A stretch of DNA of 64,000 nucleotides from Schmidtea polychroa (Eukaryota). A model generated the notes under the pieces. That model saw nothing but the letters and a program-made list of their open reading frames with translations. It ran no database searches and was not told the origin of the DNA. How positions within the stretch are numbered: the stretch's first letter is position 1; every line of letters begins with the position of its first letter. Location of the stretch: NCBI GenBank assembly GCA_044892525.1, contig CM097885.1, positions 100,502,001 through 100,566,000 on the forward strand, in the 5' to 3' direction. This document shows, piece after piece, positions 1 through 59,500 of this stretch. A program made the translations under genes and the position numbers.

Positions 1-1163
1 CTTGTTACTTATTTTCATACTATGTTCACTTTCTGTTGTTTTATATTTCTGAAGATGTTCTATACGAATCTCAGTTAAAATATTCTATTATAATTCAAGT
101 TCTTTTTTAGTTAAAAACTTTCGTTTTAATTTAAATTTAGAACTTTCCCAATTCCCATAACAGTTGATTTATTCATTTTCGCTGTTTTATGGAAATATCG
201 TATATTTTACGAGCACTATAAATTAAAATAAATTAAAATTTGAATCCAGTAAAACAAATTAAAAAACTTTAACGCCATTTTAAAATAGATATCACTCAAA
301 AGTTATAAAATGAATCTAAAAAACTCATGTCATACTTCTTTGTTTTTCCAAATCAGAGTTTTCCATAATAAAATTTTTCCAAACCAAAAAAAAACATCCG
401 ATATGAAGATGTTAACCGAATTTAATTTAAATTCTTGAAATTTTTGGAAATTCAAAAATTTCAAATAAAATAATTTTTCTTTCAACAATTAATAAATTTA
501 ATTTTCATTGAAATTTTCAATGTTAAGAATTCCAAACTATCATTTTTGAAAAAAAAACATTACTTGAGAATATAAATTCAAAAATCCAGTAAATTTATCA
601 GAAATTCGAATGTACATATTATAAGATTAACGCTTCAAAAAGAAGTGGAAAAATTTCAACATTATTTTATAAAATGAAATTCACAATGCATAATATTATA
701 ATGAATTTCTAAATGTTCGGTGTCATAATTTTTAAAATGTGTCGTGATTTATATTAGGGAAAGACAAACTGAATACAAAACACACATAAATTATTATTGT
801 AATAAGGTCATCTATTATTATTATCATTATTATTACTATATTATAAAGTGTTAAAATGGAAAATCGTGGTGACACATACTAACCTTCTTGATCTAAAATT
901 CAAAAAAATAAACAAATAACTACAATGAAGACTAAAAATTCGAAATAAAATTTAAAAACTTAATAATAATATTATTAATAATTAATTAATTAAAGAAAGT
1001 GTGTTGAAACATTTCTTTTACAAAATATTTTGACAGTATTTCTGGCTTCATCTGATAGAATAAAAAATAACTATAGTTATTCTTAATTCCAAAATATTTG
1101 GCTGACAAGAATATAGAATTATTTTTTAACAGGTAATAATAGATTGTAATATACATATTATCA

Positions 1164-1166
<3 letters not shown>

Positions 1167-1236
<70 letters not shown>
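1167..1236. repeat. (TA)n microsatellite abutting the Polinton-like terminus
   Basis: Perfect AT dinucleotide run of about 70 bp ending immediately before AGTAGT at 1237. Confidence 0.95.
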
Positions 1237-1240
<4 letters not shown>

Positions 1241-1639
1241 GTATGATGTGAGCGCCTTACCGGATTTTGGAACGCCCCCCCCCCTAACTGCTCAATAATT
1301 AATCAGAAATAAATAATAATTAATCATTATTTTTATTAAATTAATTAATTATTATAATTTTATTTCTTTATTACTTTTTTTAATTTTGTTATTTAATTTA
1401 TTTTAGTGTATATTTAAATTATTAATTCTTACCTGTTATTCTTAATACTCTTTTTTTTTACAAATTTATGCAAACTGAGACAAAAATGTTCAAAGTATAA
1501 ACATATATTAGTCAAACTTATTATACATAATCAATAAAAATAATCAATAATCAATAAAAACCAATATTTTAGCAAGATTTATTTGAATAGCATCTGGTAT
1601 ATCTTCAGCTGATTCTTTGAATGGTGGATCCGGATCGAA

Positions 1640-3389
1640 TTATTGAACAGCAAATGAGTCACCTCCCATATAATGCCCATATGCATAACTTTTATTTTTC
1701 CTTTTTCATTTTTTTTTATGGTTTTTGCATTTTTATGGTGAATAGCTGGTGATTTTTGCTATTTATTTTAGTTTACGGTATAGAAAAAATTTGATTAGTG
1801 TTATAACAATCCAGGTACGACTGATGTATTATGTCACTACCTTTCAATGTTACTTCTTTAGCTTTTTATCCTCCAAGGTAAATCCAAATGGAAGTACTTC
1901 CCAATCTACAGATTCACAAAAATAAATTATTTTATTTAACTCTTCTCTATTAGTTACCCATTTAAAATCCTTATATGGAAGTTTTTTGCTTAAAGCCCAA
2001 CCATACAAATTATTTATATCAATGTAAAGAAGTTCTGTATTGTCGGAGGATACTACATGGTGTTTGTTAACAAATGTTAATCCACCACGGATCCCCTTAA
2101 AAAAATTATTCATCTCCATATCTTGCAACAACTCGATAGGAGATTTCAAAGTCATTAAAGCGGAACTCCAGCTCATGCCTGGAATGCCCAAGAAATTAGG
2201 AGGTTCAAGTCGATTATGTGCAATAGATTTTGAACGAAATTGTTGAAAATAGTCAGCTAGTAAGAAAACATCCAATTTAAGATATAACATCATGTAATCA
2301 AACAATGATTCACAATGAAATTCTTTCCAGATATGTTGTGCCTTTTCATATTCATCAACAGTGACTCCTTCCCAAATTGGTGGTAAGTCATACGTATCTT
2401 TTAAAACTTCTAGAAGTTGCAAAATTATATGGGAATATCCCCTTTGAATTAACAATAGTCCCCCTAAATTCAGCTGATGTTAAAGGAAGAGATGTCAGGG
2501 TTTTTACTGCGTCATTTAAACTAGAACTAACAAAGTGACAAGAATCAATAAATTTATTGCTTAAACAATCAACTCTTGCTGTTAAAGTCAAAACTCTTTC
2601 GTTGCTGGTAGGAATACAATTAATATTCCAATTTTTCATTTCATTTAAACCATATTTAAGAATATGATGTAAATCATATCCACGTAAATTATGAAAAATT
2701 ACAGGCATGACAAACATAATTTGTCTTGAAATATTACATTTGGAACAAGAAGCCCCTAAATATTTACCCGTGTAATGATCATGATCTTTAATTGGATTTT
2801 TTAATAGTTTATTGCACAAGTAACAAATGTTTGAAGAAAGAAAGGATCTTTTCTGGTCAGAAGAAAGAAATTCCATTTTCTTTTTGGAATTATTTAAGAA
2901 GTAAGGTAAAACTAATTTTTCACCAATGTCATTTATTTCAGTCAAAAACTGTTCAATGCAGTTTAAACCATGAAAACTCTTATATATCTTTTCGCCAGTA
3001 AAATTATTAATTAATAATTGTCCGGCTGAAATCGGCAAGTGTAGCTGAAAATATGTATCGTCCTTAGGTAAAACAGCCTCAAAATCAGGATATACAACAA
3101 ATGGAAGAGTCACAATCTTAGACTAATCTTTAAATATCAAGTTCTTATCGGAAGGTAAACTATACAAAGTTGTACCTAGTTGGTTTTTCTTACATAATGT
3201 CTGATGTTTCTTAAAAGCTTCAACCATTCTGAATCCATTCAAGCATCCTTCACACCAAATATTCTGAATTCTAATATTTGAAACAGTATTACAATTCAAT
3301 AGCCTGTCAAGATAAGTAACTGATATGTAATGAAAAGAGTCATTTTTCTCCGACAATATTAAATTAATAGGAATTCCACCTACAACTTT
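1640..3389 (-). pseudogene. polB: Protein-primed DNA polymerase B, partial inverted copy (ZnF, endonuclease-VII-like, exonuclease, motif A, then deletion to the C-terminus)
   Basis: ORFs 3123-3356, 2388-3113 and 1850-2455 carry CEGC..KKHQTLC, YPDFE, DHDHYTGKYLGASCSKCN, FHNLRGYD, KGIFPY, GIRGG and YIDINNLYGWALS. Near-identical to the plus-strand copy, with a stop, a frameshift and a ~1.8 kb deletion. Confidence 0.9.
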
Positions 3390-3444
3390 TGACCTTAGAA
3401 TATTCTTTTTAATTTGTTGCCCGTCTTCGAAATAATGTATTGAT

Positions 3445-4270
3445 TTGTCCTATTTAACATCATTATTTTATTACTTTGTTGCAATATTTTTATTATTTTA
3501 GTTACACTTTGATAAATATTTTACAAATTTGTTGAAATTTTCTGAAATATGTTACTACTTTGTTGTAATATTTTATAATCTTGTTACAATTTGCTTAAAT
3601 ATTTTACAACTGTTGAAAATTTATCCGAAATATGTTATTACTTTGTTGCAATTTGATGAAAAAAGTTATTACTTTGTTGATTCATCACATTATTTTATTA
3701 CTTTGTTTCAATATTTTTATAATCTTGTTACAATTTGTTTAAATATTTTATAACTTTGTTGCAATTTGATAAAATCATTTATTAATTTTTATCATTTACG
3801 TAAATATTTTATTACTTTGTAATAGTTTTTATTATTTTGTTACGATATGATAAATATTTCATAACTTTATGTATATTTACTGAAATATGTTATTCATTTG
3901 TTTTAATTTAATGAAAGGTTTCACAACTTAATGCAATATTTTATTAATTTGTTGTCTTTCATCGAAATAATGTATTACTTTATTTACAATTACTTTAACT
4001 ATTTTATTACTTTGTTGTAATATTTTTTATTATTTTATTATTAGATAAATATTTTAGAAATTGGTTTAAGTTTACCGAAATATTCTAATACTATGTTACA
4101 ATTTGATGAAAAATGTATTTAGTTGTTGTCATTCACCTCATTATTACTTTATTTCAATATTTTTATAATCTTGTTACAATTTGATAAATATTTTACAACT
4201 TTGTTGAAATTTTCTGAAATCAGTTATTTGTTACAATTTGATGAAAATGAATTGATTATAATTTGTGTAT
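3445..4270. repeat. Degenerate minisatellite/satellite-like array
   Basis: Recurrent related units such as TTATTACTTTGTTGCAATATTTT, ATAATCTTGTTACAATTTG, AAATATTTTACAAC and TTGTTGAAATTTTCTGAAAT. Confidence 0.75.
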
Positions 4271-5409
4271 GTCGTTTTGAATGTTCTACACACATGTTTT
4301 GTATTAAATTTGAATTTTTCATCAATTTAGCAAATATTTAAAGAATCCTGTAGTATAATTATGAATAGATAGAATTTAATTCTTTATAAATTAGTCTAAA
4401 TATAATTTTATTTGGACACGTTTTAATTATTGGATTTTTCTCTATTTTGCTCTTTTGTTGATAATTACAATAATGAATAGTTATAATTTTCTAGAAGATT
4501 TGTCCGTCAAATATCTAATGTATTCTGTATGCCATATATTTTGGTTTAATTATTGCATCTTTAATTTAATAATTTTAGCTTTATTATGATTTATTAAATA
4601 AGTCACCTAACGTCAAAATGTGTTTTTAAAAATATATTTAAATTTTAAAATACCTCAACGTAATATTTTTTTCCTACCCCTTCCTTGATTTTGATTGGTC
4701 AGAATTTGTTCGTGTTTATTACCTTTAGTCTATAAACAATAATCTATCATTAGTCACATTTAACAAAAAGTTAACCTTTAAAAATGAATTCTTTAATAAA
4801 AACTGTTATGAATGTCCGAGGAAAAATTCAGAAATTTGGTAAATTTTAATTTATTGATTAATTAATTTATTAATTAATTTAGATAATATTAATGAAGACA
4901 ATTTGATATCGATGATTAAAGGAAATTTGAAAAGAAAAAGTAAAAATAATTTTTAATTTATTGATTTAATTAATTAATAATTTATGTAATACAAATAAAG
5001 AGAAAAATTATGACAATATGTCAATAAATCGAAACGACAATTTGCAATGTAAGTATTGATTACTTTTTATGAATTAAAGGAAATTTAATATAATTTATTA
5101 TTTAAGTAAATGTTAATATTTTTAATTTAATAAATATTTATAGTAATAAATTTTGTAAATATTTCTTGTAATAAATAATAATAATTTGAAAATTTTTGCG
5201 TAAACATTAATTTAAGCAGATTTCTTTAATATTATTTAGTAATAATAATAATATTTTGTGTAATAATTACAATTATATATCGAATTTCTTTTATTTTATA
5301 TTATTTAAAAAACCTTTGAATAATTTTAATGTTATTTTATAAATAAGGTAATCTTTACTCGAATTATTGTCAATGTAAAGTTCATTATGACCGCAATTGC
5401 AATAAAATA

Positions 5410-8400
5410 ATGAAAAAATACTATCGACATGTGAATAAACAAGTCACCTTCTTTATATGTCCCATTTGTATGACCTCCCAAAATATAACTTTTCCTGACT
5501 TTTATCATTTAAATCAATTTTCTTGTACAAAAAAGAATCTTTTTGCATCTATTAATCTAAATAAAAGACGAATTGTTACTGTTTGTCCACAACCAACGAA
5601 ACTAGTCGTAATTTCCGATGATGAAGATGTTCATTCATCAAATGACGAAAATATTGTTCAATATGGTGATTCTAATGAACCTTTAATTAAATTTAATTTG
5701 AATAAGGCACATGCTATTGTTAAAATGGTTTCTTTAAATTTAAATAAATTAATTATCACTGCACCATTATTAACTAAATTAAATTCTGTTATATCCGAAA
5801 TGGGATGTTAAAATTCAATTCTGCATTGATGTGGAATTTGAAAAAGATGGACAATTTCAGTCTTTTATAATATCTAAATCGGCGAAACCCATGAGTGATA
5901 CCTTCTTAGAAGATGGTATTGCTCTTTTGAATGAAAAAATAACTCAAGTCTGCGAAAATGGTAGCAACTGGTCATTTAATAAAATTAAGGAAATTAATTT
6001 TAAATTGACGAAATATTCACAAATAAGTAGGTTGAGTGGTCACGGAGGTATTGATACTCCTCCAAAATTATCCTTAAAACATTTTCCGGTTAATGTAAAA
6101 ACACTGACGATATGTGTTTCATCTATAGTATTTTGTCTATTATAAAATATGATGAGGTTAGTAGACATGACAGAAATATAACATCTAGTTATAATCCATC
6201 AGATCTTGCCTTTGATTCTTCTGATTTGCCAATGAAATTGTGTAATATCCCAACATTTGAGGCTAAAAATCCTGGATATGCGATTAGTGTTCTTTCGTAT
6301 GATGAATTTGACTTAATAAATGTTAATGATAAGGAAGTATTGAAACACCTTTTTTTAGATGTCATGCATAGGTATAAAGTTGTAGGTGGAATTCCTATTA
6401 ATTTAATATTGTTGGAGAAAAATGACTCTTTTCATTACATATCAGTTACTTATCTTGACAGGCTATTGAATTGTAATACTGTTTCAAATATTAGAATTCA
6501 GAATATTTGGTGTGAAGGATGCTTGAATGGATTCAGAATGGTTGAAGCTTTTAAGAAACATCAGACATTATGTAAGAAAAACCAACTAGGTACAACTTTG
6601 TATAGTTTACCTTCCGATAAGAACTTGATATTTAAAGATTAGTCTAAGATTGTGACTCCTCCATTTGTTGTATATGCTGATTTTGAGGCTGTTTTACCTA
6701 AGGACGATACATATTTTCAGCTACACTTGCCGATTTCAGCCGGACAATTATTAATTAATAATTTTACTGGCGAAAAGATATATAAGAGTTTTCATGGTTT
6801 AAACTGCATTGAACAGTTTTTGACTGAAATAAATGACATTGGTGAAAATTTAGTTTTACCTTACTTCTTAAATAATTCCAAAAAGAAAATGGAATTTCTT
6901 CTGACCAGAAAAGATCCTTTCTTTCTTCAAACATTTGTTACTTGTGCAATAAACTATTAAAAAATCCAATTAAAGATCATGATCATTACACGGGTAAATA
7001 TTAAGGGGCTTCTTGTTCCAAATGTAATATTTCAAGAAAAATTAGGTTTGTCATGCCTGTAATTTTTCATAATTTACGTGGATATGATTTACATCATATT
7101 CTTAAATATGGTTTAAATGAAATGAAAAATTGGAATATTAATTGTATTCCTACCAGCAACGAAAGGGTTTTGACTTTAACAGCAAGAGTTGAATGTTTAA
7201 GCAATAAATTTATTGATTCTTGTCAATTTGTTAGTTCCAGTTTAAATGACGCAGTAAAAACCCTGACATCTCTTCCTTTAACATCAGCTGAATTTACGGG
7301 GACTATTGTTAATTCAAAGGGGATATTCCCATATAATTTTGCAACTTCTAGAAGTTTTAAAAGATACGTATGACTTACCACCAATTTGGGAAGGAGTCAC
7401 TGTTGATGAATATGAAAAGGCACAACATATCTGGAAAGAATTTCATTGTGAATCATTGTTTGATTACATGATGTTATATCTTAAATTGGATGTTTTCTTA
7501 CTAGCTGACTATTTTCAACAATTTCGTTCAAAATCTATTGCACATAATCGACTTGAACCTCCTAATTTCTTGGGCATTCCAGGCATGAGCTGGAGTTCCG
7601 CTTTAATGACTTTGAAATCTCCTATCGAGTTGTTGCAAGATATGGAGATGAATAATTTTTTTAAGGGGATCCGTGGTGGATTAACATTTGTTAACAAACA
7701 CCATGTAGTATCCTCCGACAATACAGAACTTCTTTACATTGATATAAATAATTTGTATGGTTGGGCTTTAAGCAAAAAACTTCCATATAAGGATTTTAAA
7801 TGGGTAACTAATAGAGAAGAGTTAAATAAAATAATTTATTTTTGTGAATCTGTAGATTGGGAAGTACTTCCATTTGGATTTACCTTCGAGGTTGATTTGG
7901 AAATTCATGATTGGATTCACGACAAATTGGATGATTTTCCAGTTGCTGCTGAAAAGATGGTTCCATCTGGCTCTAAAGTTGAGAAGTTGATGCTTACACA
8001 CAGCTCTAAGAAGTACTATGTTCTTCATTGGAGACTTCTCAAGCTTTTTCTTTCTCTTGGTGTAAAATTAATTCATCTACATAGGGCAATTAAATTCACA
8101 AACGATAATATATTTAAAGATTACATCGATACCAATAGCAAACCTAGGGCGGAATCGAGTAATGCCTTGGATTAAAATTATTATAAGTTAATAAATAATA
8201 GTCTTTACGGCAAAACCGTAGAGAATCTGAAAAGAAGGTCTGAATTTGCGGCTTTGTAATTCGGCTTCTAGGCTAATTACATATACATCTAAACCAACGT
8301 TTAAAAGGGACGTAGGAAATTGGCAATGACTTAGTATCAGTCTTGCTAAATAAGGAAGCTATTTGTTTAGATAGACCCAGTTACATTGGTCAAACTGTAC

Positions 8401-9940
8401 TGGATTTATCGAAACTTAGAATGTATCAGCTGCAGTATGAAGAGTTACAAAAATATCGTAACGAATTCAACTGTAAAATTGTTGGGTTATTGAGTTGGTG
8501 ATAAATTTTAAATGTTACTCTGACACCAAGCGTGTCTTTATATGATTCACAAATAACACTTGACAACAGAAATCTTTATTGATAATTACAGATAAACTTT
8601 CACTTGACACTGACAATAAATTCAACACTCTGCTTGGTGACTATACAATGCTTATTACAACACTCGGTGAGGAATAGCACTTGTGTTAACACCGGGTTTT
8701 AAAGATCACAAATTACTGATTGGTTTCTAAACTGGGATTTTGAGCTGGTTGTTTTCTTTGACTTTATTCACAACTTTATTCAAATAATCAAATAACTTAT
8801 TTTCGTTTTATTTTTCAACTAATTCTTTTCTTCAACTATTCTCCAATAATTATTCTCCACAATTATTTCCTTTAAAATTATTTTGACAATCGTTTGTCCA
8901 ACAACGTTTCCTCCAAGTCTAATTTTATCTTTCAAATTGTCTCTCAAATCGTCTTCACTTTGTCTCTAATTTTCTTCTAATTTCATGTCCACTAGTTTTC
9001 CCTTATATAGTTCGCTTCTTTTGTGGCACTCTAGATAATCAAGTGTTTTTCCATTTTCCTTCTCCTGCTTTTCCCGACTGTCCCATTTTTATCTCTGACA
9101 GCTGTCAAGTTATTTTCCCTTTTCCCTTTTTTGATTGACCGCCTTCTACCATCAATTCTGTTATCACTGGCAAGCTGTCGAGATAAGGATATTGTTGTTT
9201 TTCCTTTTTCCCTGATTTCGAAATTCCTTTTCCTTTTTGTACTAATTAATTAGTACTGACCTTGGTTTTCATTTTCCTGTTTGATTCCCTTTATTTCCTT
9301 TATCTTTCTTATTTTTAGTTTCTTTTTACTTCCGTTTTCTTTTCTGAGTTCCAATCGATCGTCCCGTTTGTCATGGCGATCTTCCCCCAGGTAATTTTAT
9401 TTATTTCTTTAGAAATTGTTATTTAGGTATCCTCAACAAAATTAATATCGTTGCAGGCGATAGGGATTCATTTTTTCTTGAAGTAATTAATTGTAAGCTT
9501 GATGTTCTTTTACCAGCCATGATCCGTGATAATTTACTAAGCACATCTAATTACGAACCTAGTCATCCTTTATATAGTAGGAACCTTGATTCTGTCATTG
9601 GAAAGTTCAAAGACGAAAATGAAGGTCTTAAATATATGGAGTGGGTTTTTCTTAGGCCAAAGTGTTATAGTTTGTTAGGTGATGACGAGACTAAAAAGGC
9701 TAAAGGAGTAACATTGAAAGGTAGTGACATAAAACATCAGTCGTACCTGGATTGTTATAACACTAATCAAATTTTTTCTATACCGTAAACTAAAATAAAT
9801 AGCAAAAATCACCAGCTATTCACCATAAAAATGAAAAAACTGCACTTACCAACGCAGATGATAAAAGGGTTTGGATGGGGAAAAATAAAAGTTATGCATA
9901 TGGGCATTATATGGGAGGTGACTCATTTGCTGTTCAATAA
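5410..9940 (+). pseudogene. polB: Near-complete protein-primed family B DNA polymerase (Polinton/adintovirus type), disrupted by stops, frameshifts and a solo LTR
   Basis: Collinear fragments: N-terminal region (KIQFCIDVEFEK, ENGSNW, VNVK..CFIYSIL), C2H2-like finger, ExoI YADFE, DHDH endonuclease-VII-like motif, ExoII FHNLRGYD, KGIFPY, ExoIII YLKLDVFLL, motif A YIDINNLYG, motif B KLINNSLYGK (about 8185-8214), motif C GDRDS (9456-9470), GKFKDE, LRPKCYS, KAKGV, DKR..AYGHY, stop 9938-9940. In-frame stops at 6640, 7002, 8173 and 9786. Joining the 5410-5811 ORF by a frameshift is inferred. Confidence 0.92.
8480..9438 (-). mobile_element. Solo LTR (copy 1) inserted in pPolB
   Basis: TGTTG...CAACA termini and a 4-bp TSD AAAT (8476-8479 / 9439-9442). 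Removing it restores the frame CKINIVAGDRDSFFLE. Minus-strand TATATAA at about 9003-9010 with AATAAA downstream. Homologous copies at 16148 and 32349. Confidence 0.9.
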
Positions 9941-10649
9941 TTCGATCCGGATCCACCATTCTCGCAATTCAAAGAATCATCTGAAGATATACAGGATGTT
10001 ATTTAAATAAATCTTTGTTAAAATATTGGTTTTTTTGATTTTCTTTAGAATTAAATGTATAATAAGTTTGACTAATATATGTTTATACTTTGAACATTTT
10101 TGTCTCAGTTTGCATAAATTAGTAAAAAAAATGAGTATTAAGAATAACAGATAAAAATTAATAATTTAAATTTACACTAAAATAAATTAAATAACAAAAT
10201 AAAAAAAATTAATAAAGAAATAAAATTATAATAATTAATTAATTAAATAAAAATAATGAAATAAAAGGAAATGATTAATGAAAATATTTGTTAAGTTCTG
10301 ATTAATTATTGAGTAGTTAGGGGGGTTACCAAAATCCGGCAGTAGCAATAATATTTTATAAATGTTTTTATACAATTTGGTGTGTTTCGTAAGTTAAACA
10401 TACAACAGCAGCATAAAAAGTGTGATTTTTCCGATTAATTATCATACTATTTCATGGACATGTCTCACAAAAGAATTCTGCCTTTACTAAGAACTTATAT
10501 TTTCTATTGCTTGAAATTTGTTTTTATATAAATATTTAAAGTCACAAGTATAAATAGGTTTGCATTTTTGCCTGCATTCACTTGAACTGAACTTTTTTTA
10601 AATAAAAATACAAAATAATTTTTAAAATTAAGATCTCCGATCTTAAATT

Positions 10650-10722
10650 GGCGGTTCGTGAGCCACATTTGAATAGTTACAGAGCCACTTTTGGCCCGCA
10701 GGCAGCACTTTGGGAACCCATG
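10650..10722 (-). mobile_element. hAT (Charlie-like) terminal fragment
   Basis: Minus strand reads CATGGGTTCCCAAAGTGCTGCCTGCGGGCCAAAAGTGGCTC, resembling CAGGGGTTCCCAAAC..GCGGGCCAAA hAT ends. The opposite end was not found. Confidence 0.45.
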
Positions 10723-12238
10723 TTTTGGATCATTAAAAAAATAACATATTTTATTAATCAAAAATAATATTTAAAAAAATAATATTTGTATAATTTGATT
10801 ATTAAATCAATAGTTTTTCTTTTCCAACAAGATGATAACAGAAAAACTGTTGAAACATATCGTAAAATATATTGATGTTTGAGTAATGCTTTCTGANNNN
10901 NNNNNNNNNNNNNNNNNNNNNNNNNNNNNNNNNNNNNNNNNNNNNNNNNNNNNNNNNNNNNNNNNNNNNNNNNNNNNNNNNNNNNNNNNNNNNNNNNNNN
11001 NNNNNNNNNNNNNNNNNNNNNNNNNNNNNNNNNNNNNNNNNNNNNNNNNNNNNNNNNNNNNNNNTTACCTTTTACAAACATTCAATATGAAAATTATATA
11101 TGTGCTTTTCAAATGTTTTGATTATGATAATTAATGATAATATATATGAATTAATTCTGTCGACAGGAAGTTCCGTTCAAACTGAATGAAAACGTAAATA
11201 AACAAAACTTTGTTTACTAGTAAACACGTCTTTCTTATTATATAAAATAAATACGAATAAAAGTCATGAAGTTATAATTTGCGAAATAATTTTCAAATTT
11301 TACTTTTTTACGTGTTTTTAAATCAACTATTTACAAGAAAATTGCTTAAATATAAGCAAGAATTAAACTTTTGTTAGAGTTAAAACAAACTCAATAAGAA
11401 ATGATAAATATTATAAAAATGTGATATAATTTCTTTGCAATAATTTCGATAAATAAGTTTCAAGAAGTGGAACAAGTGGTTTTATTTTCAGCTTACAAGA
11501 AATCTTAAAATATTGAAGCAAAAATTACCATAGAATTTGAAAAATGATTAAGAAAAATTTTCTTAGTCAAAACAGCGATCTCTTTGTCTTTTTCATTTAA
11601 AGATTTACCTATGTTATGGCTTACACAAATTTTCAAAATTTCTTATGTCAATAACCTCCCTCTTTTTTGGACAGAAAACACCTGAAAACAATAATTTTTA
11701 CATATTCGAATTCAAAAACTCATTTTAAGACTCATTTGTTGCCTTTAGACTTTTATCTGAAAATGTTTGGAGGAATTTTTGACTTCGAACAATTAATTAA
11801 AAATGACATCCAGGCTATTAATTTTTATGTACTTTTACTTTTATCATTTTTTTCAACCAACAAGTAAATAATCGCATTTAAATGTAGTACTTGTTAATTT
11901 TATAATCCAATAAATTAATTTCTATCAATTTTATAAGAAAGCACCAATCAAACATTCTTTTCACGATTTATTTTGACAGTTTTCTTGTCATCATCAGGTT
12001 GGATATATTAACTATATAAATTAAGGATTTTTAAACCAATTTATTAATTGTATTAATTATTAATTATATAAAAAGTTTTTTTTTAAAAATAAAACTTTAT
12101 CCTTTTAAAAGTTATGATTAAAATAATTTATGGTTTTTTAAATTTTAACATTTAGAATTAAATTTAATAATTTATTAATTATTTAATTTAACAACAACAA
12201 TCGATACATACCAAATACAAAAAAATATTTAAAAACAT

Positions 12239-41800: not shown

Positions 41801-44417
41801 ATTATATTATATAAGTTTCTTCTATATCTAGTTTGCAAGACTGTAATAAATATGATAAAATAATAAAAATGATACAACTGTGATATTCATAGCGGCCTGG
41901 TGATAAATTGGCAGGTTATTGAAAGGAGCGGTCTCGAGATCGCGATTCTTACACGGTACTGATGATAGCAAAATAATGTCGTGACTAATCTGTCATTAAA
42001 AATTGCATCAAATATCATAGGACTATTTATTTGAAAAGACAGTACTAAATATATGCACGTACAGTAAAACCTCCATATAAAGTACACCTTATTTTCAAAC
42101 AATTCTTCTTCTGGTGTACTTCTTAAAGGTAGGTGTACTTATAATAGAAATATTGAAAAATAAAGAGTTTGATACACCATATTCAATAAAGATTGAGGGT
42201 ATTTATATATGGTAAATGTCGTGAATTCTAAAATTCTAGCAAATAAATTGTTTCGGTCATGAAAAGAGATATAAAAATTAAGGATACAACAATTATTGTT
42301 TAATTAAGAATTCATAATGTTTTGTTTGCCTTTTGTTTTTCTCTTGCATTTTTCTTGCTTTCTCATTCAACTGCAATATGTGAAGCTCTTATTTTATTAA
42401 TCCCGTGGTTTTAGCATAAATAACAAGTTTTGAAATCATTTGCATTGCTTTACAATTATGAGAGTTACGAATAACCAAAAAGTGTAGTTTTTCACCTAAT
42501 GTTGAGCATGTTAGAGCAACTATAATGCGGTCCTTTCCTCGTTCCCCACCTTTGCAAGAATCTCCGGTTTCTGTAAGCGTTTTATCAAATATTGTTCAAA
42601 AATACATCTTGTCCATATTGAATACATTACGGCGCTCGTTCCTTACTAAAATAGTTTTAGTGCCATTTTTAATTCATCAATTGATATTTAGTTTATAGTT
42701 CCCGATTTTCCCAATATTGAATTTTGGTTTGATATTATGACGACATTTTAACTCTATTAATCTCAAGAGCATCCCATATTTCGAGGGTCTTTGTTTGTAG
42801 AATAGGCCAAGTGATAGGATAATTTAACGAGAGTGAACGGACAAACCAACAATTGACATTATTTTCGACTGTTTTTCTTTCACCACTTGAACACATCCCT
42901 TAGACACATCCAAATATTTTGCCGTTTCTCTTACACTTTTATTCATTCGTAGACATTCTATAATCTTTATATTCTTCTCAAAAGCGACAAACTGTCTTTT
43001 TGTTGCTGTGGTGTTGTTGCGATTTTCCATTTTTATATGGGCTCATAAAAATATATTTATGAAATAGTTTTCTTAATATTAAAACTTAAATCTTAATTGT
43101 TTTTAATATTTAACGTTTTAATAATATTATATATATATTTCACTAATAAACCTCTAAATATAATTTTTATGATTATAAAAGATATATGATATTTGAAATA
43201 AGTATATTGATATTCTTTCTATTGAGTTATTATACGAACTTTTTTTGCTAATTTTACCAATGATTTCTTTTCCATTGACTTTGTATTTATTAACCCTTTG
43301 CAGTCCTATGTCGAGTCTAACTCGACATTCCATTAATTGCTCATTTGAAGTTTCAGATTTCGTTGTATGTATTTTTTTTGCATTTCGATTTAAGAACAAA
43401 TATATGTGTAGAATGTAAATTGTTTATGTTGGGTTTCGACCAGTTTAGTTCAAGAAAATCCTTTATTCAAAAAATCATTAAAACAATTGTGGACCTGGTG
43501 GGTAACTTTTTTTATGGACTGCAAAAGGTAAAAGGCTTGACTATGAATCAGTATTTATGAATCAGTCAAGCTTTTTAATAAATACAATGCATATTGAGTT
43601 AATTAATATTTTTTAAAAGTATTTAAATAAAATTGTGTACTTTGTGTAAGAGTCAATACCTCTTAAAAACACAAGAGCGGCTCATTTTCATTTTTTATAC
43701 CTTAAAGAGATGTGTATTTTTAGTGGGTGTACTTTAAAAGGAGGTTTTACTGTATGCAAAGGATGTTGACAGTTGAGTTTATATTGTGGAAAGAAAATGT
43801 TGATATTAGTAGATATAGTTAATAAGAAATAATAGTACAGAAATATTATGCGTTAAAACAGTTTTATAGCAGCAGTTTCTAACAATTGGTTTTTATCTAA
43901 TTTACCTAATAAATAATTAGCAAAGGTCGATTTTTCATTTATTTTGCTAAAAGGAAAAATGATGATATGACAGATATTGGCATTTGGGAAATAATTTCTA
44001 TTTATATAACATACTGAAATAAAATTCGTGAAAAGTGACAAGAAACTTGAAATAAAAAAAATTTTCAAATTCAATTAAGCTAATAATTTAAATTGGTTCA
44101 AAGTTAACTAATTAAAATGANNNNNNNNNNNNNNNNNNNNNNNNNNNNNNNNNNNNNNNNNNNNNNNNNNNNNNNNNNNNNNNNNNNNNNNNNNNNNNNN
44201 NNNNNNNNNNNNNNNNNNNNNNNNNNNNNNNNNNNNNNNNNNNNNNNNNNNNNNNNNNNNNNNNNNNNNNNNNNNNNNNNNNNNNAGCAATGAAATAGTC
44301 CTAACTCTGTTTGATCATTCATGAATTCCAAATAACTTTCGACCTCTATGTAGTCTGTTCCCCCAGTTGCAGTGTCTGACTTACTACGATATGGAACCAA
44401 AACAACTCCTCGAGCTC
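15461..44417 (-). CDS. NCX: Sodium/calcium exchanger gene (NCX/SLC8 family), partial: four exons covering Calx-beta 2 and the following segment
   Basis: Exons 44417-44306, 40112-40015, 36707-36559 and 15560-15461 all have AG/GT boundaries, compatible phases and no stops. Spliced peptide: GARGVVLVPYRSKSDTATGGTDYIEVESYLEFMNDQTEAFIKVNIIDDNEYEKDEYFHIELGEPILVKKPEFTG..EDMGKPRLGDIKEIKVIIKESLEFKHVVDNLLRHGQLSEFIGTSSWKEQFVEAITVSP. Flanking exons were not located. Confidence 0.9.
16148..17041 (-). mobile_element. Solo LTR (copy 2)
   Basis: TGTTGGGTTATTGAG...TATCCTCAACA, homologous along its length to 8480-9438. Imperfect 4-bp TSD AAAG/TAAG. Confidence 0.88.
18430..19270. repeat. Diverged tandem duplication (~300 bp unit) spanning an N-gap
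   Basis: GAGTTT.TCCGACAA...ACACTCAAC.TGTCTCAAATTATTACAAA...TAGTTGCACGAACATTT occurs at about 18430-18670 and again at about 18798-19265. Its end recurs near 19535. Confidence 0.8.
20644..20740. mobile_element. Hairpin (palindromic) MITE-like element, short version
   Basis: 48-bp arms with one mismatch around a 1-nt loop (AAGAGAGTTCGAAGACTATAAATCAGTAATATATCGATGTTTGTTGAT). Same family as 56319-56523. Confidence 0.85.
20747..20815. repeat. (TTA)n microsatellite
   Basis: Direct inspection. Similar tracts lie at about 18030-18200 and 19590-19675. Confidence 0.95.
22745..22990 (-). mobile_element. Possible apurinic-endonuclease fragment of a non-LTR retrotransposon
   Basis: Minus-strand pieces RLPGRVLYIRN and EEV*ITSLKVELKIFTFGVVYSPN resemble the LINE APE patterns GGGV..YI and E.VW...IG.IYRSP. 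Heavily decayed. Confidence 0.35.
23390..24034. repeat. Dispersed repeat with GC-rich hairpin core, possibly a solo LTR of a second family (copy A)
   Basis: Core TGTAGATCCCAGC..CCTTTAAAA..GGGATAGCTGGGGTGATTGTA (about 23523-23582) is shared with 30375-30432. TGT start and ACCACA end, but no TSD. Confidence 0.4.
29134..29318. mobile_element. piggyBac-type MITE (185 bp)
   Basis: TTAA-CCGTTTGCGGACGG ... CCGTCCGCAAACGG-TTAA: perfect 14-bp TIRs with TTAA on both sides. Confidence 0.9.
29480..29745 (+). mobile_element. Possible Helitron Rep/helicase N-terminal repeat fragment
   Basis: Three imperfect NET..QR..RL repeats (NETPQQQQERL, NETLNQRHARL, NETQVQRQTRI), read through one TAG. This motif type is common upstream of Helitron Rep domains. 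Confidence 0.45.
30256..30659. repeat. Dispersed repeat with GC-rich hairpin core, possibly a solo LTR of a second family (copy B)
   Basis: Core TGTAGTACCCAGC..CCTTTAAAA..GGGACTGCTAGGGTGATTGTA. Ends in ATTAACCACA, like copy A. No TSD. Confidence 0.4.
32349..33105 (-). mobile_element. LTR (copy 3), truncated at its right end
   Basis: Starts TGTTGGGTTATTGAGTTGGTG and aligns to 8480-9200. Homology stops after CTGTCGAGATAAGGATATTGTTGTT. Confidence 0.88.
33297..35955 (+). mobile_element. pogo/Tigger-like DNA transposon, degenerate
   Basis: Transposase remnants at about 33690-34560 include LEEKL, FTASHG*F.RYKQR..VGESESVD and KILLILDNDPGRP..VKFLPTNSTLLIQQMDEDV. TA-flanked imperfect TIRs CAGGAAACTCTCCCATAGTAC / CAGGAATATCTGATATAGTAC. 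The outer boundary is less certain than the coding remnant. Confidence 0.75.
36559..36707 (-). CDS. NCX: NCX exon (EFTG..EDMGKPRLGDIKEIKVIIKESLEFK)
   Basis: Matches NCX1 AEMGRPILGEHTKLEVIIEESYEFK. 149 nt with AG/GT, phase 1 in and phase 0 out. Confidence 0.9.
39062..39485. mobile_element. pogo/Tc1-mariner-type MITE (424 bp)
   Basis: Perfect 18-bp TIR CACCTAACCCTCGATTTA with TA on both flanks, and subterminal TTTACACG-like repeats. Confidence 0.9.
40015..40112 (-). CDS. NCX: NCX exon, Calx-beta 2 C-terminal part (AFIKVNIIDDNEYEKDEYFHIELGEPILVKKP)
   Basis: Matches NCX1 KTISVKVIDDEEYEKNKTFFLEIGEPRLV. TTTACAG acceptor and GTAAGT donor. 98 nt. Confidence 0.92.
42062..43752 (-). mobile_element. 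pogo/Tigger-like DNA transposon, internally deleted and degenerate
   Basis: 27-bp TIRs CAGTAAAACCTCCATATAAAGTACACC with 2 mismatches and TA flanks. Minus-strand HTH ORF 42824-43030 plus remnants NVFNMDKMYF and VALTCSTLGEKL. Confidence 0.88.
44306..44417 (-). CDS. NCX: NCX exon, Calx-beta 2 central part (GARGVVLVPYRSKSDTATGGTDYIEVESYLEFMNDQT)
   Basis: Matches NCX1 GARGNVIVPYKTIEGTARGGGEDFEDTCGELEFQNDE. 112 nt with AG/GT. Its phase-2 end joins exon 40112 to form GAA. Confidence 0.92.
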
Positions 44418-46609
44418 CTAAAAAAGAAATATAATAATTATCGAGATTATATTTTCTATAAAAATATTTCAATTGTCTCAATTGTGTATCAAATTTTAAG
44501 TATATATTTTATCTCAAAATTTTATTAAAATTTTCTATTTTTTATCTTTTTTATGCTAAAAGGTCTTATTGACAAATATTTTGTAAAAAATATTTAGTTT
44601 GAAATTTGTTCTCGTAGAAAACGTTTAAAACTTAAAAATTTGTTTATTTCAATTAAATATTAAAAGATAAATCAATATTTTCAATGTCACATGTGTGCAA
44701 GAAACTTTATTTGTTTATTCTTACTAAAATCAAAACATTATTAATGAAAAATCAACATGTTATATAAAGTTTATTTAAATAAGCAAAGTTTTGATTGACA
44801 GATAATTTAATTTTAATTTTATAGACGATTAAATATTTATTTTTGCAATTAATGAAATACTTAGATAGTTAGTGTAGAAGATAAAGTATAAATCAACAAC
44901 TAATATATTCCAACATAGAATCAATTAATAAATATGCGAGGATATTTCAATTTGATTACGTCATGTTTTTGAACTATCTTACATAATAAATATTATAAAT
45001 ATGTCAACATAAATATGTCAAGGTCAACCACATGTTTAAATTTAGATTTTTACAATTAGATAAAAATCAAAAGAACTCATTATTTTTGAATTATTTAATT
45101 ACCTTAACACAAATTTAAAGAAAAATTGCTCTTCTATATCAAACGTTTACATTATAAGTTTCCTGGTCAAATGTTCTAAATATTTACCTAGGGTTCTTTT
45201 TGAATATTTACTACCAATAAGATTACTAAAGTGGGCAATCTCATTTTAAAATTATTTAAATTCTTTATTAATGTTAAATATGTTTTATTTATCTTTATTT
45301 TTAGATTTATGTTTTCAAACTTATGTTTGTTGTTTTTGTCTAAATACAAATATGACGTTATTTATTCCAATTTGGTTATTATTATCTTTATTATTGTTTT
45401 GAAATATTTATCAAATTTAATTATATTTTTATAAACTATAAGAATTATTTAATTTATTTTATGAAATAAAGTTAAGAATGGATAAACAATTTGAAATTTT
45501 ACAATTTGTTCACAAATTGCTTTTTTATTATTACATTGAAAATCATTCCCAATTAGCCAAAACACATCATTATTAACATTTATCTTGATTTTCTGTCATT
45601 TTTTTATTCAATACTTAGTAGTTTCCAGTTTTTAGATTACTTATTTTTACTTTAGTTATTTTTAGTATTTTGGTGAATAATTTATTGTTTTAATTGTTTT
45701 AATCAATAAATGTAATTTCACCAAAAACAAATTATTATATTAGAGCAAAGGTGGACATAAACTATTTACAAAATTAAATTTTGATAGGAATAAGAAAATA
45801 TTAAATTTTTTCACTGAAAACTTTCTTTAATAAAAATATTAAAATTATTTCGATTATAATATTATTGAAATCTTATTCTTTTATATTTATTGATTTTGAA
45901 TTGTTTTGAATTCATAATAAAGGATACGTTTAACGATGAACTTAAAGGTCTTCATTGATAAATAACAAAATCTTTAAGGTTAAAGAAAGTAATAATATAT
46001 TTAAATTTGTGAGTAAAATAAAAGTAAACCAAATATAAAAATGAAATAAAAATATCAAATTAATTTTACACTATTAGACCAACAAAAATACATTTAACTC
46101 CCTTTTCACTGCCAAATTAATGATTACTTATCAACATAATATATTTAATAGTTACATATAGAATGGTAATAATATTTGAGCAATCTCTGATAGCAAATGA
46201 ATGTAAAAAACCAGTTTTAAATTTTTAAACAAATTAAAATATAACAAATCTATATGCCATAAATATATTTTTTAATTTCTAGAACAATTTAAGAGAAATA
46301 AATTATTGAAAATCTACTAATGAAAACTAAGTGCAAATGGAAAAAATCAATTTTCATTGACCTAAATTAATTTCCATAACTTACAGCAAATACTTTCAAT
46401 CAATAATTTATTTCAATTTATTTCCATTTCATTGGTTAATAAAAGTGGGAAATGACGACTTGTATAGGAAAACAATACAAAACTTGTGATATATATATAT
46501 TAAACATAAATTTAAAGTGAAATAATAATAATAATAATAATTTATTATTTTTATTCTTATTGAAATTAAATATAAAATTTTGGTGAATAATTAAAGATAA
46601 CTAATATAA

Positions 46610-47333
46610 TTGGTTCTTAATTTGCATCTGCCAATAAAAAGATGGATTGACATTCATGATGAAATTGTCTTTAAATATAATACAACATGGCATAGAGCAA
46701 TCAACACGACACCAATGAATGCTTTTAGAGGAAGACAAAGAAGCGAAATGAGAGAAAATTTATTGTTGGAAAATATTAATAATGAAAATTCACTTTTAGT
46801 TGAATCAGATGAATATACTGATCTAGTTGGGGATTTAAACACCAATAATAATGGCAATAGCAATGAAAATGAAAGCATTAATGCTGAATCAAATAGTGAA
46901 ATTATTCGAGAAAGCCTGGTTGACCTAAATTATCGAAACAGATATACCAGAAGAATGGTGAGTGATGCAGATGTTCACTATCATTCTATTACTTTTAATC
47001 CTGGAGAGCGTGTCTTGGTTAAGAAATCTTTTGATGCAAACACAGAAACAAGAAAAAGAAAAATGGAAGATTTTTATGAAGAAGGAAGTTGGATAATAGT
47101 AGAAAGAGTTGGAAACGAGTCTTTTAGATTAAAATCGGATTTGAATGAAGAAAATCACATGGTGGTTTGTAAAAATAGGCTGAAAAAGATAATTTAGAAA
47201 AACAATAATTAAATTTCATTATTTAATTGCTTTTTATATAATATTTTGGTGTTTTTATTGCTTTTTGTTTCTTTGTGTAGAATAAAAAAATTTTTGCGTA
47301 AGATATAAGCGTGCGTAAGATATGGGTTCGACA
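46610..47333 (+). mobile_element. C-terminal fragment of a retroviral-type (rve) integrase, Ginger/Gypsy-like, with candidate terminal ...ACA
   Basis: ORF 46610-47197 has WIDIHDEIVFKYNTTWHRAINTTPMNAFRGR (integrase core C-terminus) and FNPGERVLV..GSWII (SH3-like). A GCGTAAGATAT direct repeat is followed by GGGTTCGACA at 47333. The DDE N-terminal part is absent. Confidence 0.6.

Positions 47334-56244: not shown

Positions 56245-56318
<74 letters not shown>
56245..56318. repeat. (TA)n microsatellite abutting the hairpin element
   Basis: Direct inspection. Confidence 0.95.
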
Positions 56319-56322
<4 letters not shown>

Positions 56323-56523
56323 TTATTAAAAAGAGAGTTTGAAGACTATAAATCAGTAATATATCGATGTTTGTTCATACTCGCGAATTTTCGGCATTGC
56401 CTTTTGTCAAGTGAATTTATTTCAAGTGACGAGAAATTCACTTGAAAAGGCAAATTCGTGAGTATCAACAAGCATCAATATATTACTGATTTATAGTCTT
56501 CAAACTCTCTTTTTAATAAATTC
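56319..56523. mobile_element. Foldback/hairpin MITE-like element, long version (205 bp)
   Basis: 72-bp inverted arms with 4 mismatches, plus a second internal inverted pair (TGCCTTTTGTCAAGTGAATTT / AAATTCACTTGAAAAGGCA). The arms match 20644-20740. Confidence 0.88.
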
Positions 56524-59500
56524 AATGGAAAAAATAANNNNNNNNNNNNNNNNNNNNNNNNNNNNNNNNNNNNNNNNNNNNNNNNNNNNNNNNNNNNNNN
56601 NNNNNNNNNNNNNNNNNNNNNNNNNNNNNNNNNNNNNNNNNNNNNNNNNNNNNNNNNNNNNNNNNNNNNNNNNNNNNNNNNNNNNNNNNNNNNNNNNNNN
56701 NNNNNNNNNNNNNNNNNNNNNNNNNNNNTGTTAGTGTATTTGTGTTACAACATAAATTAACGTCTGATTAATAAAATGTAATTTGAAAAAAAATAATAAT
56801 CTGTGTTTATACCATAGAAACCTTTACTTTACTTTACAGTTCGAAATATTATAATGAATCTTTAACTTTTGTATTATCAAAAATAATTTTTTTACTCACG
56901 ATTTAGGGATAACTATTCTCATACATATACCAAAATATAAATTATTTTAAGCCATATTAAAAGGATATAATTTTTCAAGTTATATGGTTGACTAACAAAT
57001 AATCTTTAAAGTTTTTACATTTTATCGGTTTTAACAGAAATGAAATTTATTTGCGTTGACTGTAAAAATGTAACAATTATACTTTGTGAGTCTCAATTCT
57101 TTTAGATGAAATGATATTTTATAAGACTCATTCTAATAATTTCAGTAAAACATCACATGACAAATCGTTAGTAAACCATGCAAAATTTATATTTATAATT
57201 TTATGAGTCATATACAGCCGGCATGGCTGAAGGAATATATAAAAATATGAATTTAATAATAATACATTGATGTTTTGAAAAAGAACCTATAAATTCAACG
57301 AAATGGTGCCAAAAGTTCTATGATGAAAGTTCTTATAATGTAAATTATATACGATTTTACTTTTCTTATTTTTATAATTAAAATGAAATAAAATAATTTA
57401 AGACAGAGCTTTTTAATTCTAAACAAATATGCAAAATGAAAGATAGCTGATAATATGTGGTCGATTCTTTACTATTAAAAGATAACTAGTTATTATACGA
57501 TTTACTTCCTCAATAAAAATATTTATATATTTATATTATATTCTTTTAATATATATATTTTCATTTTATATCAACTAAAATGTGAATGAAATTTTTTAAT
57601 TTTTTAAATATATAATTATAATATTTTAAATTTTTTTATTCAAAACCTAATAACTTATGAATAATAATAATATATGGGATATAAAGCTGAAATTTCCCTC
57701 TGCATAGAATTATTAATTTCAATTTGATATGTCAACAGAAACGATTAAAACAAATAAATGAAAATGAATATAATAGGAAATATGTGATTTGATCATGACT
57801 ATTTTAATTAAACTATTTTCTCATTAGAATTACAAATTTATTTAACAAAGTCAGCAAATAATATTTTTCCAATCTCTGCTGATATTTCCGATATAATCTT
57901 CGTATAATAAATAAATAATTTAAGTCTGCAGACAAGAAACAATGAAATATTTTTAGTTCACAAATCTCCCTTACATCTTTCATACGATATGAGTGATTTT
58001 TTTAAATATATTAAAAATTATTAAGCATAGTAATTTTAAAAAAGTGGCTTCCAAATTCGTATATTACCTCAAGATCGTTAGTAATTTAGATAGAAATAAA
58101 GAACTTTAAATTGTTGTTTTTTATTAGAATAAAGATCTGGTACTTATTTTTATACTAAAACAGTATGTACTTTTGATTATTTAAATTGTCCATATTAAGT
58201 TAACGATTTTTTTATATATTCAAAATAGAGAAGAAAGAAAATATTCACCTGCTATTATATTAAGTTTATATTGAGGCTAACACCTGATAAAAATTATGCG
58301 GAAATCTTGGGAACATATTTAATTTAGTTCATTAATGAATTTTTTCTGAAAAATAACAAAAGGAAATAAGAAATATTTATAAAAATATAGTGTGCTACAT
58401 TGTGAAACTTTAAGACAATGTACACCCATGGATAAGAAATACTTTATTACAAAAATACATTATCACTTGTGTATACTAGAAAAACAATTAAGGAATATCT
58501 ATTGTATTTAAACAAAAAAGATTACTATTAAAACATTTTAATGGTCATCGATTTCTAATAGTTTATAATATAATACGTCACAATAGAAATGAATTAATTC
58601 ACCTTGAATTAATTAGTTCAAAATAAAAAATTATTAAAAAAAACATATTTTAGTAAAATTAAATAAATGCCTCATTATATTTTTCCTTATATTTTTATAT
58701 TTATTTATATTCATATTTGATTTAGGATTAAAAAATATACTATTAATTTGATTATCTTAAAGATTTTTCCCAAAGAATGAATTCTTTTATCCATACTTAC
58801 TGACAAGATGGATATCTAAAGGAGAAAAGAAATCTTTCATCCATTCCCATCATAAAATATAATTACATCACCTGGAAAAGGACTCTCGTGGTATTTTCTC
58901 ACCCCACAATGATTGAAGATTGAAATTCTAGTGTCAAATAATTTTATTCAAAAGAATATTTTTTTTTACAATAAATTTTTCGCAATCATTTGATATCCTT
59001 TTAAATTTAAACTATAACAGGAAAATTATTTTAAGTCATAGAGATTTATATTTCTTCAGAAATGTCTATTAGTTAAATAATATCATAAAGAAAATTAACT
59101 AATTATTTTAAAATTATGTATTTAAAGATTTTTTAACTGAATGCACTCAAATTTATTTGATAATATTTTACATTATTATTTTACAATAAGATAAAGGTAA
59201 ATGCGCGTCGTAATTGTATAAATTTTTGTATTTCATTGATATAATACAGTTTTGGTTATTTTTAAATACCTCTATAATATCAAAAAAATAATATCAAAAA
59301 ATATTCTTCCATCTTCCATTAGAAGTCGTATAAAATAAAATGCTCAATCATCAGTAGCCCGAAAAATATCAAAAACAAAAATTAAATATTGAATCAATTT
59401 TGGATCTTTTCTATTTCCGACATTATAAACTTCATATTATAGAATTATCGCATAAATATATTTTAAATAATTAGCAAATTTTTGACGAAATTAATTTACA

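What the first reader, a model, noticed from the sequence alone, without database searches (positions are those of the whole stretch)
1237..10339. Fold-back (copy-back-like) Polinton derivative whose inverted arms contain the polymerase gene itself
Seen: the ~2.1 kb left arm is an inverted copy of the right end plus the distal pPolB gene, so both outer ends carry the same terminus. The arms differ by scattered substitutions and indels, so they are not a simple collapsed duplicate. They share two lesions: the TAG after IFKD and the frameshift after FPYNFATSRS. Known: Polintons replicate by protein-primed synthesis from TIRs. Inference: a template switch created a short, symmetric-ended, capsid- and integrase-less defective replicon that would need a helper polymerase. 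The alternative is a chromosomal fold-back inversion after pseudogenisation.
Basis: partly seen in the sequence, partly recalled or inferred. Interest (0 to 1): 0.8.

Follow-up and report, generated by a model that had tools for sequence, protein, structure and literature searches.

The report
Dead Polinton with copied-over left arm
This is a long-dead, virus-like transposon in what looks like a flatworm gene's intron, whose left interior was most likely overwritten later by a back-to-front copy of its own broken polymerase gene; it is an ordinary DNA-repair scar, not a new kind of replicating element.

Summary
The inverted arms are real, but they are not one copy-back event. The left arm has two blocks: 1260-1869 pairs with 10339-9692, and 1870-3395 pairs with 7891-6370. 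It skips 1.8 kb that holds polymerase motifs B and C and a solo-LTR-like insert. Only the left end has the AGTAGT terminus; the right repeat lacks the outer 21-23 nt, and no target-site duplication is found. Arm divergence steps from 5.6% in the outer ~360 nt to 1.0% further in (p=4e-6). The polymerase gene was already broken when copied: three lesions are shared, and the right copy has 7 frame breaks and 4 stops. Best reading (0.55): the outer blocks are the original terminal repeats of a Polinton that died in place, and a later chromosomal repair event primed from the left repeat copied the right interior behind it. A helper-dependent copy-back replicon is unlikely (0.08). Paralogous copies (0.15) and misassembly (0.15) could not be excluded without the host genome or reads. 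The host looks planarian, and the locus probably lies in an slc8a-1 intron, so hairpin RNA is possible. Gene-containing Polinton repeats are already described. Interest 0.2.

The parts
1167..1236 (.). (TA)35 microsatellite directly outside the left end
   Evidence: TRF 1167-1237, period 2
1237..1618 (+). Left terminal repeat, starting with the AGTAGT end motif; probably the original left TIR
   Evidence: Motif at 1237; pairs with 10339-9962 from 1260 at 5.6% substitutions (15 of 266 strict sites) and 9 gap events
1619..1869 (-). Inverted copy of the polymerase 3' end (pairs with 9961-9692); carries the shared stop at 1775
   Evidence: 3 of 204 strict substitutions and about 3 indel events, intermediate between the flanking blocks
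1870..3395 (-). Inverted copy of the polymerase middle (exonuclease, endonuclease VII insert, motif A; pairs with 7891-6370); joined to the previous block across a 1.8-kb skip with a 4-nt microhomology
   Evidence: 15 substitutions and one 4-nt indel in 1526 nt; junction; Pfam DNA_pol_B_2 and Endonuclease_7 on ORF 2388-3122, both just under their curated cut-offs
3396..4250 (.). Degenerate tandem array (periods 31, 83, 114 nt); the inner join of the left arm falls at its start
   Evidence: a 7-nt word at the join recurs at the matching place of an array paralogue at 3923
4611..4710 (.). Fragment of a dispersed host repeat in the spacer
   Evidence: 90% identical to 18528-18625
5410..8479 (+). 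5' part of a full-length but decayed Polinton pPolB gene
   Evidence: tblastn of 7 relatives covers residues 1-1068 of P0003 with 6 frame changes; stops at 6640, 7002, 8173
8480..9438 (.). Solo-LTR-like insertion (TG...CA ends, 4-nt target duplication) inside the polymerase gene
   Evidence: relatives at 16148-17041 (15% substitutions) and 32348-33116 (5' part)
9439..9940 (+). 3' part of the decayed pPolB gene, with the shared stop at 9786 and a frame break near 9840
9962..10339 (-). Right terminal repeat, lacking the outer 21-23 nt and any target-site duplication
15456..15566 (-). Host slc8a-1 (Na/Ca exchanger) exon for residues 664-700; later exons are not in 1-15460, so the element probably lies in the next intron
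   Evidence: 94.6% identity to the named Schmidtea mediterranea Slc8a-1; no match for residues 696-917 in 1-15460

Best explanation
A Polinton with terminal repeats of about 380-400 nt and its polymerase gene next to the right repeat inserted, died and decayed in place (inferred; decay shown). Much later a break in the left interior was repaired in the chromosome: the end at the left repeat paired with the right repeat and was extended inwards along the polymerase gene (inferred, BIR/MMBIR-like). The copy skipped or later lost 1.8 kb and rejoined the chromosome at a tandem array through short microhomology (junctions shown; order inferred). The original left interior, with integrase and capsid genes, was lost then or earlier. 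Both copies have since mutated neutrally (shown). The locus encodes nothing functional; its only likely activity is to form a long hairpin in the host intron RNA (inferred).
For: Divergence step: 15 of 266 strict sites differ in 1260-1618 against 17 of 1711 in 1619-3395 (Fisher p=3.9e-6; p 1.2e-5 and 8.8e-7 under two other gap settings); change-point at 1609 (2-lnL range 1596-1734), reached by 0 of 2000 permutations. The step remains outside homopolymer runs (11 of 269 against 12 of 1463, p=2.5e-4), and the AT-richest fifth of the inner part is not raised (5 of 431). A 380-400-nt repeat matches vertebrate Maverick TIRs (46-1447 bp, mean 402; PMC8097293). Template dead before copying: three shared lesions; the right copy has 4 stops where 0.96 are expected if it were only as old as the copy (p=0.017). 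Neutral decay since: 2 synonymous and 13 non-synonymous of 15 substitutions, expected synonymous share 0.20, p=0.75; of 12 amino-acid-changing sites examined, 7 changed on the left, 3 on the right, 2 unresolved. One-ended copy: no older continuation of the arm inside 3396 (34 of 100 shuffles reach the score). Short microhomologies at all three joins. In two related loci the polymerase also ends 319 and 135 nt from a contig end (L010, L012).
Against: The true TIR length is unknown, since no parent element was found (best protein relatives 59-67% identical). Block 1619-1869 is ambiguous: by substitutions it resembles the young block (p=0.44 against inner, 0.027 against outer), by indels the old block (p=0.38 against outer, 0.0099 against inner); if it is old, the shared stop at 1775/9786 was in both repeats at insertion. 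The frame-break clock is only borderline (7 in 3.57 kb against 1 in 3.04 kb, p=0.056). No target-site duplication ties the left repeat to the right one. The microhomologies are 4-7 nt in AT-rich DNA, and one is read from a paralogue, not from the original sequence. The scaffold has 12 N gaps and the arms share a 589-nt identical stretch, so a mis-join is possible.
Confidence: 0.55

Rival explanations
1. Copy-back (template-switch) replicon: during protein-primed replication the polymerase switched to the nascent strand and made a short symmetric genome that a helper Polinton replicated and integrated.
For: The overall shape (end, partial gene, loop, gene, end) fits a copy-back genome as defined in PMC13506859. 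The left end is intact. Polintons lacking polB are reported to stay mobile in butterflies (10.1101/2025.02.07.637071).
Against: Arms made and integrated at once should diverge evenly; they step 5.6% to 1.0%. The right terminus and a target duplication are missing. The left arm is discontinuous. 0 of 36 related loci hold an inverted second polymerase, though most are short contigs of distant relatives.
Confidence: 0.08
2. Non-autonomous family: the left arm is a second, truncated member of a polymerase-dead family inserted head to head; or a polymerase-dead copy with ~630-nt repeats was mobilised in trans and only block 1870-3395 was copied later.
For: The shared stop lies in block 1619-1869, whose indel density resembles the old block. 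The spacer holds an array and a dispersed host repeat and could be host DNA. Truncated Polinton remnants from the pPolB end cluster at one locus in C. elegans (10.1101/2024.01.15.575659).
Against: Two family copies should not show a sharp step at the likely TIR edge. No remnant of a terminal repeat was found upstream of the right polymerase (4250-5346: 9 of 60 and 3 of 60 shuffles reach the score). No near-identical protein from another copy was found, but the host's pseudogenes need not be in that set.
Confidence: 0.15
3. Assembly artefact: a paralogous Polinton fragment from elsewhere was stitched in through the (TA)35 run or the 589-nt identical stretch.
For: 12 N gaps of 129-253 nt point to a short-read scaffold; identical stretches of 589, 245 and 172 nt; the left end abuts a microsatellite.
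Against: No N between 1 and 10896. Each arm has private changes, so two real sequences exist. The flanks are unrelated (score 42 and 39 against a shuffle maximum of 44), so the arms are not two alleles. A 2974-nt spacer and substitution-type differences do not fit a missed-adapter read.
Confidence: 0.15
4. Old long arms later homogenised by gene conversion, which carried the lesions from one arm to the other.
For: Conversion between terminal repeats expands them into polymerase genes in linear mitochondrial plasmids (PMC3673629). It would explain both the step and the shared lesions.
Against: A conversion tract should leave older arm sequence on its inner side; none is found.
Confidence: 0.07

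Closest known systems
Degraded Polinton/Maverick loci (PMC8097293; passages)
   Same: AGTAGT end motif, TIR of about 400 nt, polymerase with stops, frameshifts and a secondary insertion; 96% of vertebrate loci are eroded in this way.
   Different: Here the left interior is an inverted copy of the polymerase, and only one end keeps the motif.
Butterfly Polintons with ~2-kb gene-containing TIRs, and polB-less mobile Polintons (10.1101/2025.02.07.637071; sections 12 and 13)
   Same: About 2 kb of inverted repeat that duplicates core genes.
   Different: Those repeats hold capsid and protease genes in many recent insertions; here they hold a dead polymerase at one known locus and are of two ages.
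Terminal-repeat expansion in linear mitochondrial DNAs and plasmids (PMC3673629; passages)
   Same: Recombination starting in a terminal repeat copies neighbouring coding sequence, including 50-700 nt of DNA polymerase genes, to the other end.
   Different: There it happens on free linear replicons with equal ends; here the diverged outer repeats point to a chromosomal event.
Polinton remnants at C. elegans eri-6/7 (10.1101/2024.01.15.575659; passages)
   Same: pPolB-end remnants and TIRs inside a host gene drive local rearrangements; pPolB next to a TIR without integrase at 10 loci.
   Different: There host exons are inverted; no inverted polymerase duplication was seen in the passages read.
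Mu killer and Ac killer of maize (10.1101/2020.01.07.897926; passages)
   Same: One-off inverted duplication of part of a DNA transposon within reach of a host transcript.
   Different: Those are shown to give dsRNA, siRNAs and silencing in trans; here there are no RNA data, the loop is 3 kb and the sequence is intronic.
Copy-back defective viral genomes (PMC13506859; passages)
   Same: Panhandle shape with a unique loop.
   Different: Mostly described for negative-strand RNA viruses; their arms are one continuous fresh copy, which is not the case here.

Membership tests
Polinton/Maverick (derived from) | [quoted passage not shown] | tested here: met
   Pfam DNA_pol_B_2 E 2.9e-12; full length covered by 1238-1312-aa relatives, as a pseudogene
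Polinton/Maverick (derived from) | Terminal inverted repeats of about 50-1500 nt | tested here: met
   1260-1618 against 10339-9962; size range from PMC8097293
Polinton/Maverick (intact) | (AGT)2...(ACT)2 motif at both ends | tested here: not met
   Left end only
Polinton/Maverick (intact) | 5-8-nt target-site duplication | tested here: not met
   the right end is truncated, so its loss may be secondary
Polinton/Maverick (intact) | Integrase, packaging ATPase, capsid genes | tested here: not met
   0 of 187 tblastn hits from 279 ORFs fall off the polymerase pieces; the queries included these genes but are distant
Alpha adintovirus PolB class (OTU plus pfam03175; PMC8502044) | pfam03175-type PolB with an N-terminal OTU domain | tested here: inconclusive
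   pfam03175 met; the N-terminal region aligns with relatives but no OTU profile or fold was tested
Copy-back defective genome | One continuous reverse copy of one end | tested here: not met
   Two blocks with a 1.8-kb skip
Copy-back defective genome | Arms of a single age and two equal termini | tested here: not met
   Step 5.6% to 1.0%; right terminus absent
Copy-back defective genome | Replicated in trans by a helper (many copies or free linear DNA) | not testable with these tools
   Host genome and reads were not available
Transposon 'killer' locus (Mu killer type) | Inverted duplication of transposon sequence inside a transcribed region | tested here: inconclusive
   Duplication met; intronic position inferred from exon order, later exons not seen
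Transposon 'killer' locus (Mu killer type) | dsRNA, small RNAs and silencing in trans | not testable with these tools
   No RNA data

The most novel reading that the evidence does not exclude
The locus is one member of a family of short, two-armed, helper-dependent Polintons made by template switching during protein-primed replication: a genomic fossil of a defective-interfering genome, and indirect evidence that Polintons replicate as free linear DNA. The uneven arm divergence would then come from later conversion and loss of the right tip. A second bold reading, about equally unlikely (near 0.07): read-through of the host slc8a-1 intron turns the 1.5-kb, 99% stem into dsRNA that silences this Polinton family in trans, a planarian counterpart of Mu killer.
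Probability: 0.08. Interest if true: 0.65.

Novelty: new member of a known kind. Interest (0 to 1): 0.2.

Why it matters
As read here it matters little: it shows that a dead Polinton's own terminal repeats can prime chromosomal repair that lengthens them, which warns against reading long gene-containing repeats as replicative design and against dating insertions from whole arms. It would matter more if the same joins recur across the genome (defective Polinton genomes spread by a helper), or if the intronic hairpin feeds small RNAs, since Polintons are among the elements most clearly silenced by piRNAs in planarians (PMC8532177, passages).

Tried and rejected
Rfam on 1-12000: 0 matches. PDB sequence search with the 30-protein alignment: 0 matches. 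Pfam on the two longest spacer ORFs and an ORF in an LTR copy: no family; the 9 other spacer ORFs were not scanned, except 3123-3449 and 5347-5811. Two protein searches with ORF 7282-8175 found no near-identical relative: best 61% among the 120 listed of 273 longer hits, 64% (67% over a third of the query) among 50 near-length hits. 36 related loci from prokaryotic genome bins, probably mis-binned eukaryotic contigs: 0 of 36 with an inverted second polymerase, and none showing both ends. In one search the block 1549-1573 was set in the wrong register (56% apparent differences); the Fisher values that include it are discarded and one search replaces them. Search for a terminal-repeat remnant: the left repeat scored above 60 of 60 shuffles against 3396-5346 (+) and against the left flank (-), but not against 4250-5346; these hits were not inspected and are taken as AT-rich low-complexity matches. 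One substitution next to the deletion join (1874) was left out of the 12 polarised sites, and one stop at an alignment edge (8313) out of the stop count. The Atlas look-up of the host exon gave only a lead (0.84); Pfam, PDB and the protein search settled it. Alternative genetic code rejected: the host exons and the polymerase pieces read under the standard code and the stops are of more than one kind. Allelic copy and missed-adapter read rejected (see rival 3). Literature: 10 searches listed no paper describing a Polinton with its polymerase duplicated in inverted arms; I saw listings and abstract starts, passages of 14 papers and two whole sections of one. No supplements were read. Repbase, subscription papers and the preprints' extended data were not seen and may hold such families. 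The viral and metagenome contig collections and the host genome stayed unchecked.
Full report
Observation. The window holds a long inverted repeat at the stated place. Self-BLASTN gives two separate blocks: 1260-1867 against 10339-9694 (85% with gaps) and 1870-3395 against 7891-6370 (98.8%, 1526 nt). The left arm therefore skips 7892-9691 of the right unit. Both arms encode pieces of a protein-primed family B polymerase (Pfam DNA_pol_B_2, E 2.9e-12). The relatives found with the 297-aa ORF carry DNA_pol_B_2 and endonuclease VII domains.

The right polymerase. Seven relatives align along 5410-9937, from residue 1 to about 1233 of a 1242-aa protein, with 7 frame changes: near 5805, 6070-6097, 6900, 7350, 8235, 8310 and 9840. 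Four stops lie inside alignments: 6640, 7002, 8173 and 9786. A 959-nt insert with TG...CA ends and a 4-nt target duplication interrupts the gene at 8480-9438; two relatives lie at 16148-17041 and 32348-33116. I call it a solo LTR from these features; the family was not identified. The left arm holds residues 358-872 and about 1155-1197 only, so it lacks polymerase motifs B and C. Three lesions are shared: stops at 6640/3125 and 9786/1775 and the frame break near 7350/2413. The break near 6900 and the stop at 7002 are on the right only.

The ends. AGTAGT starts the element at 1237, directly after a (TA)35 run. This is the commonest Maverick end motif (PMC8097293, passages). The right repeat stops 21-23 nt short of it; the terminal 20-mer occurs once in the window with up to 3 mismatches, and no target duplication is found. 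The two ends are thus not the same terminus.

Two ages. Counting only sites 5 or more columns from a gap, the arms differ at 15 of 266 sites in 1260-1618 (5.6%) and 17 of 1711 in 1619-3395 (1.0%), p=3.9e-6; two other gap settings agree. The best change-point is 1609 (range 1596-1734), reached by 0 of 2000 permutations. Composition does not explain it: outside homopolymer runs the counts are 11 of 269 against 12 of 1463 (p=2.5e-4), and the AT-richest fifth of the inner part has 5 of 431. Against this, block 1619-1869 groups with the young part by substitutions but with the old part by indels, so the boundary may lie at 1870. Since the copy both arms have changed neutrally: 2 synonymous and 13 non-synonymous substitutions (p=0.75 against neutral); of 12 sites examined, 7 changed on the left, 3 on the right and 2 are unresolved. 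The gene died well before the copy: 4 stops against 0.96 expected (p=0.017), and 7 frame breaks in 3.57 kb against 1 indel in 3.04 kb since the copy (p=0.056).

Joins and spacer. The 1.8-kb skip has a 4-nt microhomology with two further changes beside it. A 9-nt indel between 4-nt direct repeats sits at 1618/1619, at the divergence step. The inner join falls at the start of a degenerate tandem array, on a 7-nt word found at the matching place of an array paralogue. No older continuation of the arm lies inside 3396. The spacer has no recognisable gene and holds a dispersed host repeat at 4611-4710. No integrase, ATPase or capsid similarity was found anywhere in the window, with distant queries.

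Host context. An exon at 44305-44418 is 97% identical to the named Schmidtea mediterranea Slc8a-1. Four exons run on the minus strand down to 15456-15566 (residues 537-700, 95-100% identical), and residues 696-917 have no match in 1-15460. The host is therefore a planarian, and the element probably lies in an intron of this gene, unless the later exons hide in the two N gaps or the scaffold is mis-joined. The pre-mRNA would cross both arms and could form a 1.5-kb stem; this is inference, without RNA data.

Mechanism. Most likely (0.55) the outer ~380 nt at each end are the original terminal repeats of a Polinton that decayed in place, and a later repair event primed from the left repeat copied the right interior behind it, in the way break-induced and microhomology-mediated replication do (PMC9199198, passages). 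Shown: the blocks, the step, the lesions, the missing terminus, neutral decay.

Comparison with what is known. Most Maverick loci are eroded fossils (96% in vertebrates). Polintons with ~2-kb repeats that duplicate core genes, and polB-less mobile Polintons, are described (10.1101/2025.02.07.637071, sections 12 and 13). Terminal repeats of linear mitochondrial plasmids expand into polymerase genes (PMC3673629, passages). Polinton repeats rearrange a host locus in C. elegans (10.1101/2024.01.15.575659, passages). The locus works like such repeat expansion and resembles Mu killer in anatomy (10.1101/2020.01.07.897926, passages), but it fails the tests for a copy-back genome and for an intact Polinton. 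Passages of PMC10748475, PMC11071308, PMC3014272, PMC13506859, PMC8502044, 10.1101/2022.07.12.499685, PMC8532177 and PMC6431247 were also read. Ten searches listed no report of a polymerase duplicated in Polinton arms; Repbase, subscription papers and supplements were not seen. 0 of 36 related loci show an inverted second polymerase, a weak test because most are short and distant.

Verdict. A real, well-resolved rearrangement of a dead Polinton, most likely a one-off chromosomal repair scar. New member of a known kind; interest 0.2. Whether the architecture recurs in the host genome stayed unchecked and is the test that could raise the score.

Noticed in passing
window 8480-9438, 16148-17041, 32348-33116: Three copies of a solo-LTR-like repeat with TG...CA ends; the first has a perfect 4-nt target duplication, the second 3 of 4, the third matches only the 5' part.
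   Followed up: partly
window 15456-44418 (-): Four exons of planarian slc8a-1 spread over 29 kb; residues 1-536 and 701-917 were not found in the window, so its introns are very long.
   Followed up: yes
window 3396-4250: Degenerate tandem array with 31-, 83- and 114-nt periods and no other copy in the window; unknown whether it is host or Polinton sequence.
   Followed up: partly
window 4611-4710, 18528-18625, 19132-19224: Short dispersed repeat; the last two copies flank an N gap inside a larger duplicated stretch (18491-18776 and 19098-19374), possibly an assembly overlap.
   Followed up: partly
window 12239-13141 (-): Two ORF remnants that look like a reverse transcriptase and GIY-YIG element (recalled resemblance; Pfam gave no supporting family).
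   Followed up: no
window 34150-34542 (+): DDE_1 transposase fragment (Pfam E 1e-15).
   Followed up: partly
window 46610-47197 (+): 195-aa ORF without a Pfam match that resembles the end of a retroelement integrase (recalled resemblance).
   Followed up: partly
window 56316-56526 and 20628-20746: 75-nt inverted repeat beside a (TA)38 run, with a related copy at 20.6 kb; MITE-like.
   Followed up: no
L019:11993-13567 and 16736-18310: A related locus carries a direct duplication of the polymerase's C-terminal half (two 525-aa ORFs with the same alignment to the window).
   Followed up: no
L001-L036: 36 Polinton-type polymerase loci inside bacterial and archaeal genome bins; several also carry integrase and ATPase genes and one a jelly-roll capsid. 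Probably mis-binned eukaryotic or viral contigs.
   Followed up: partly
window 1870-3395 against 6370-7891: Transversions outnumber transitions among the 15 arm differences (11 to 4); unexplained.
   Followed up: no
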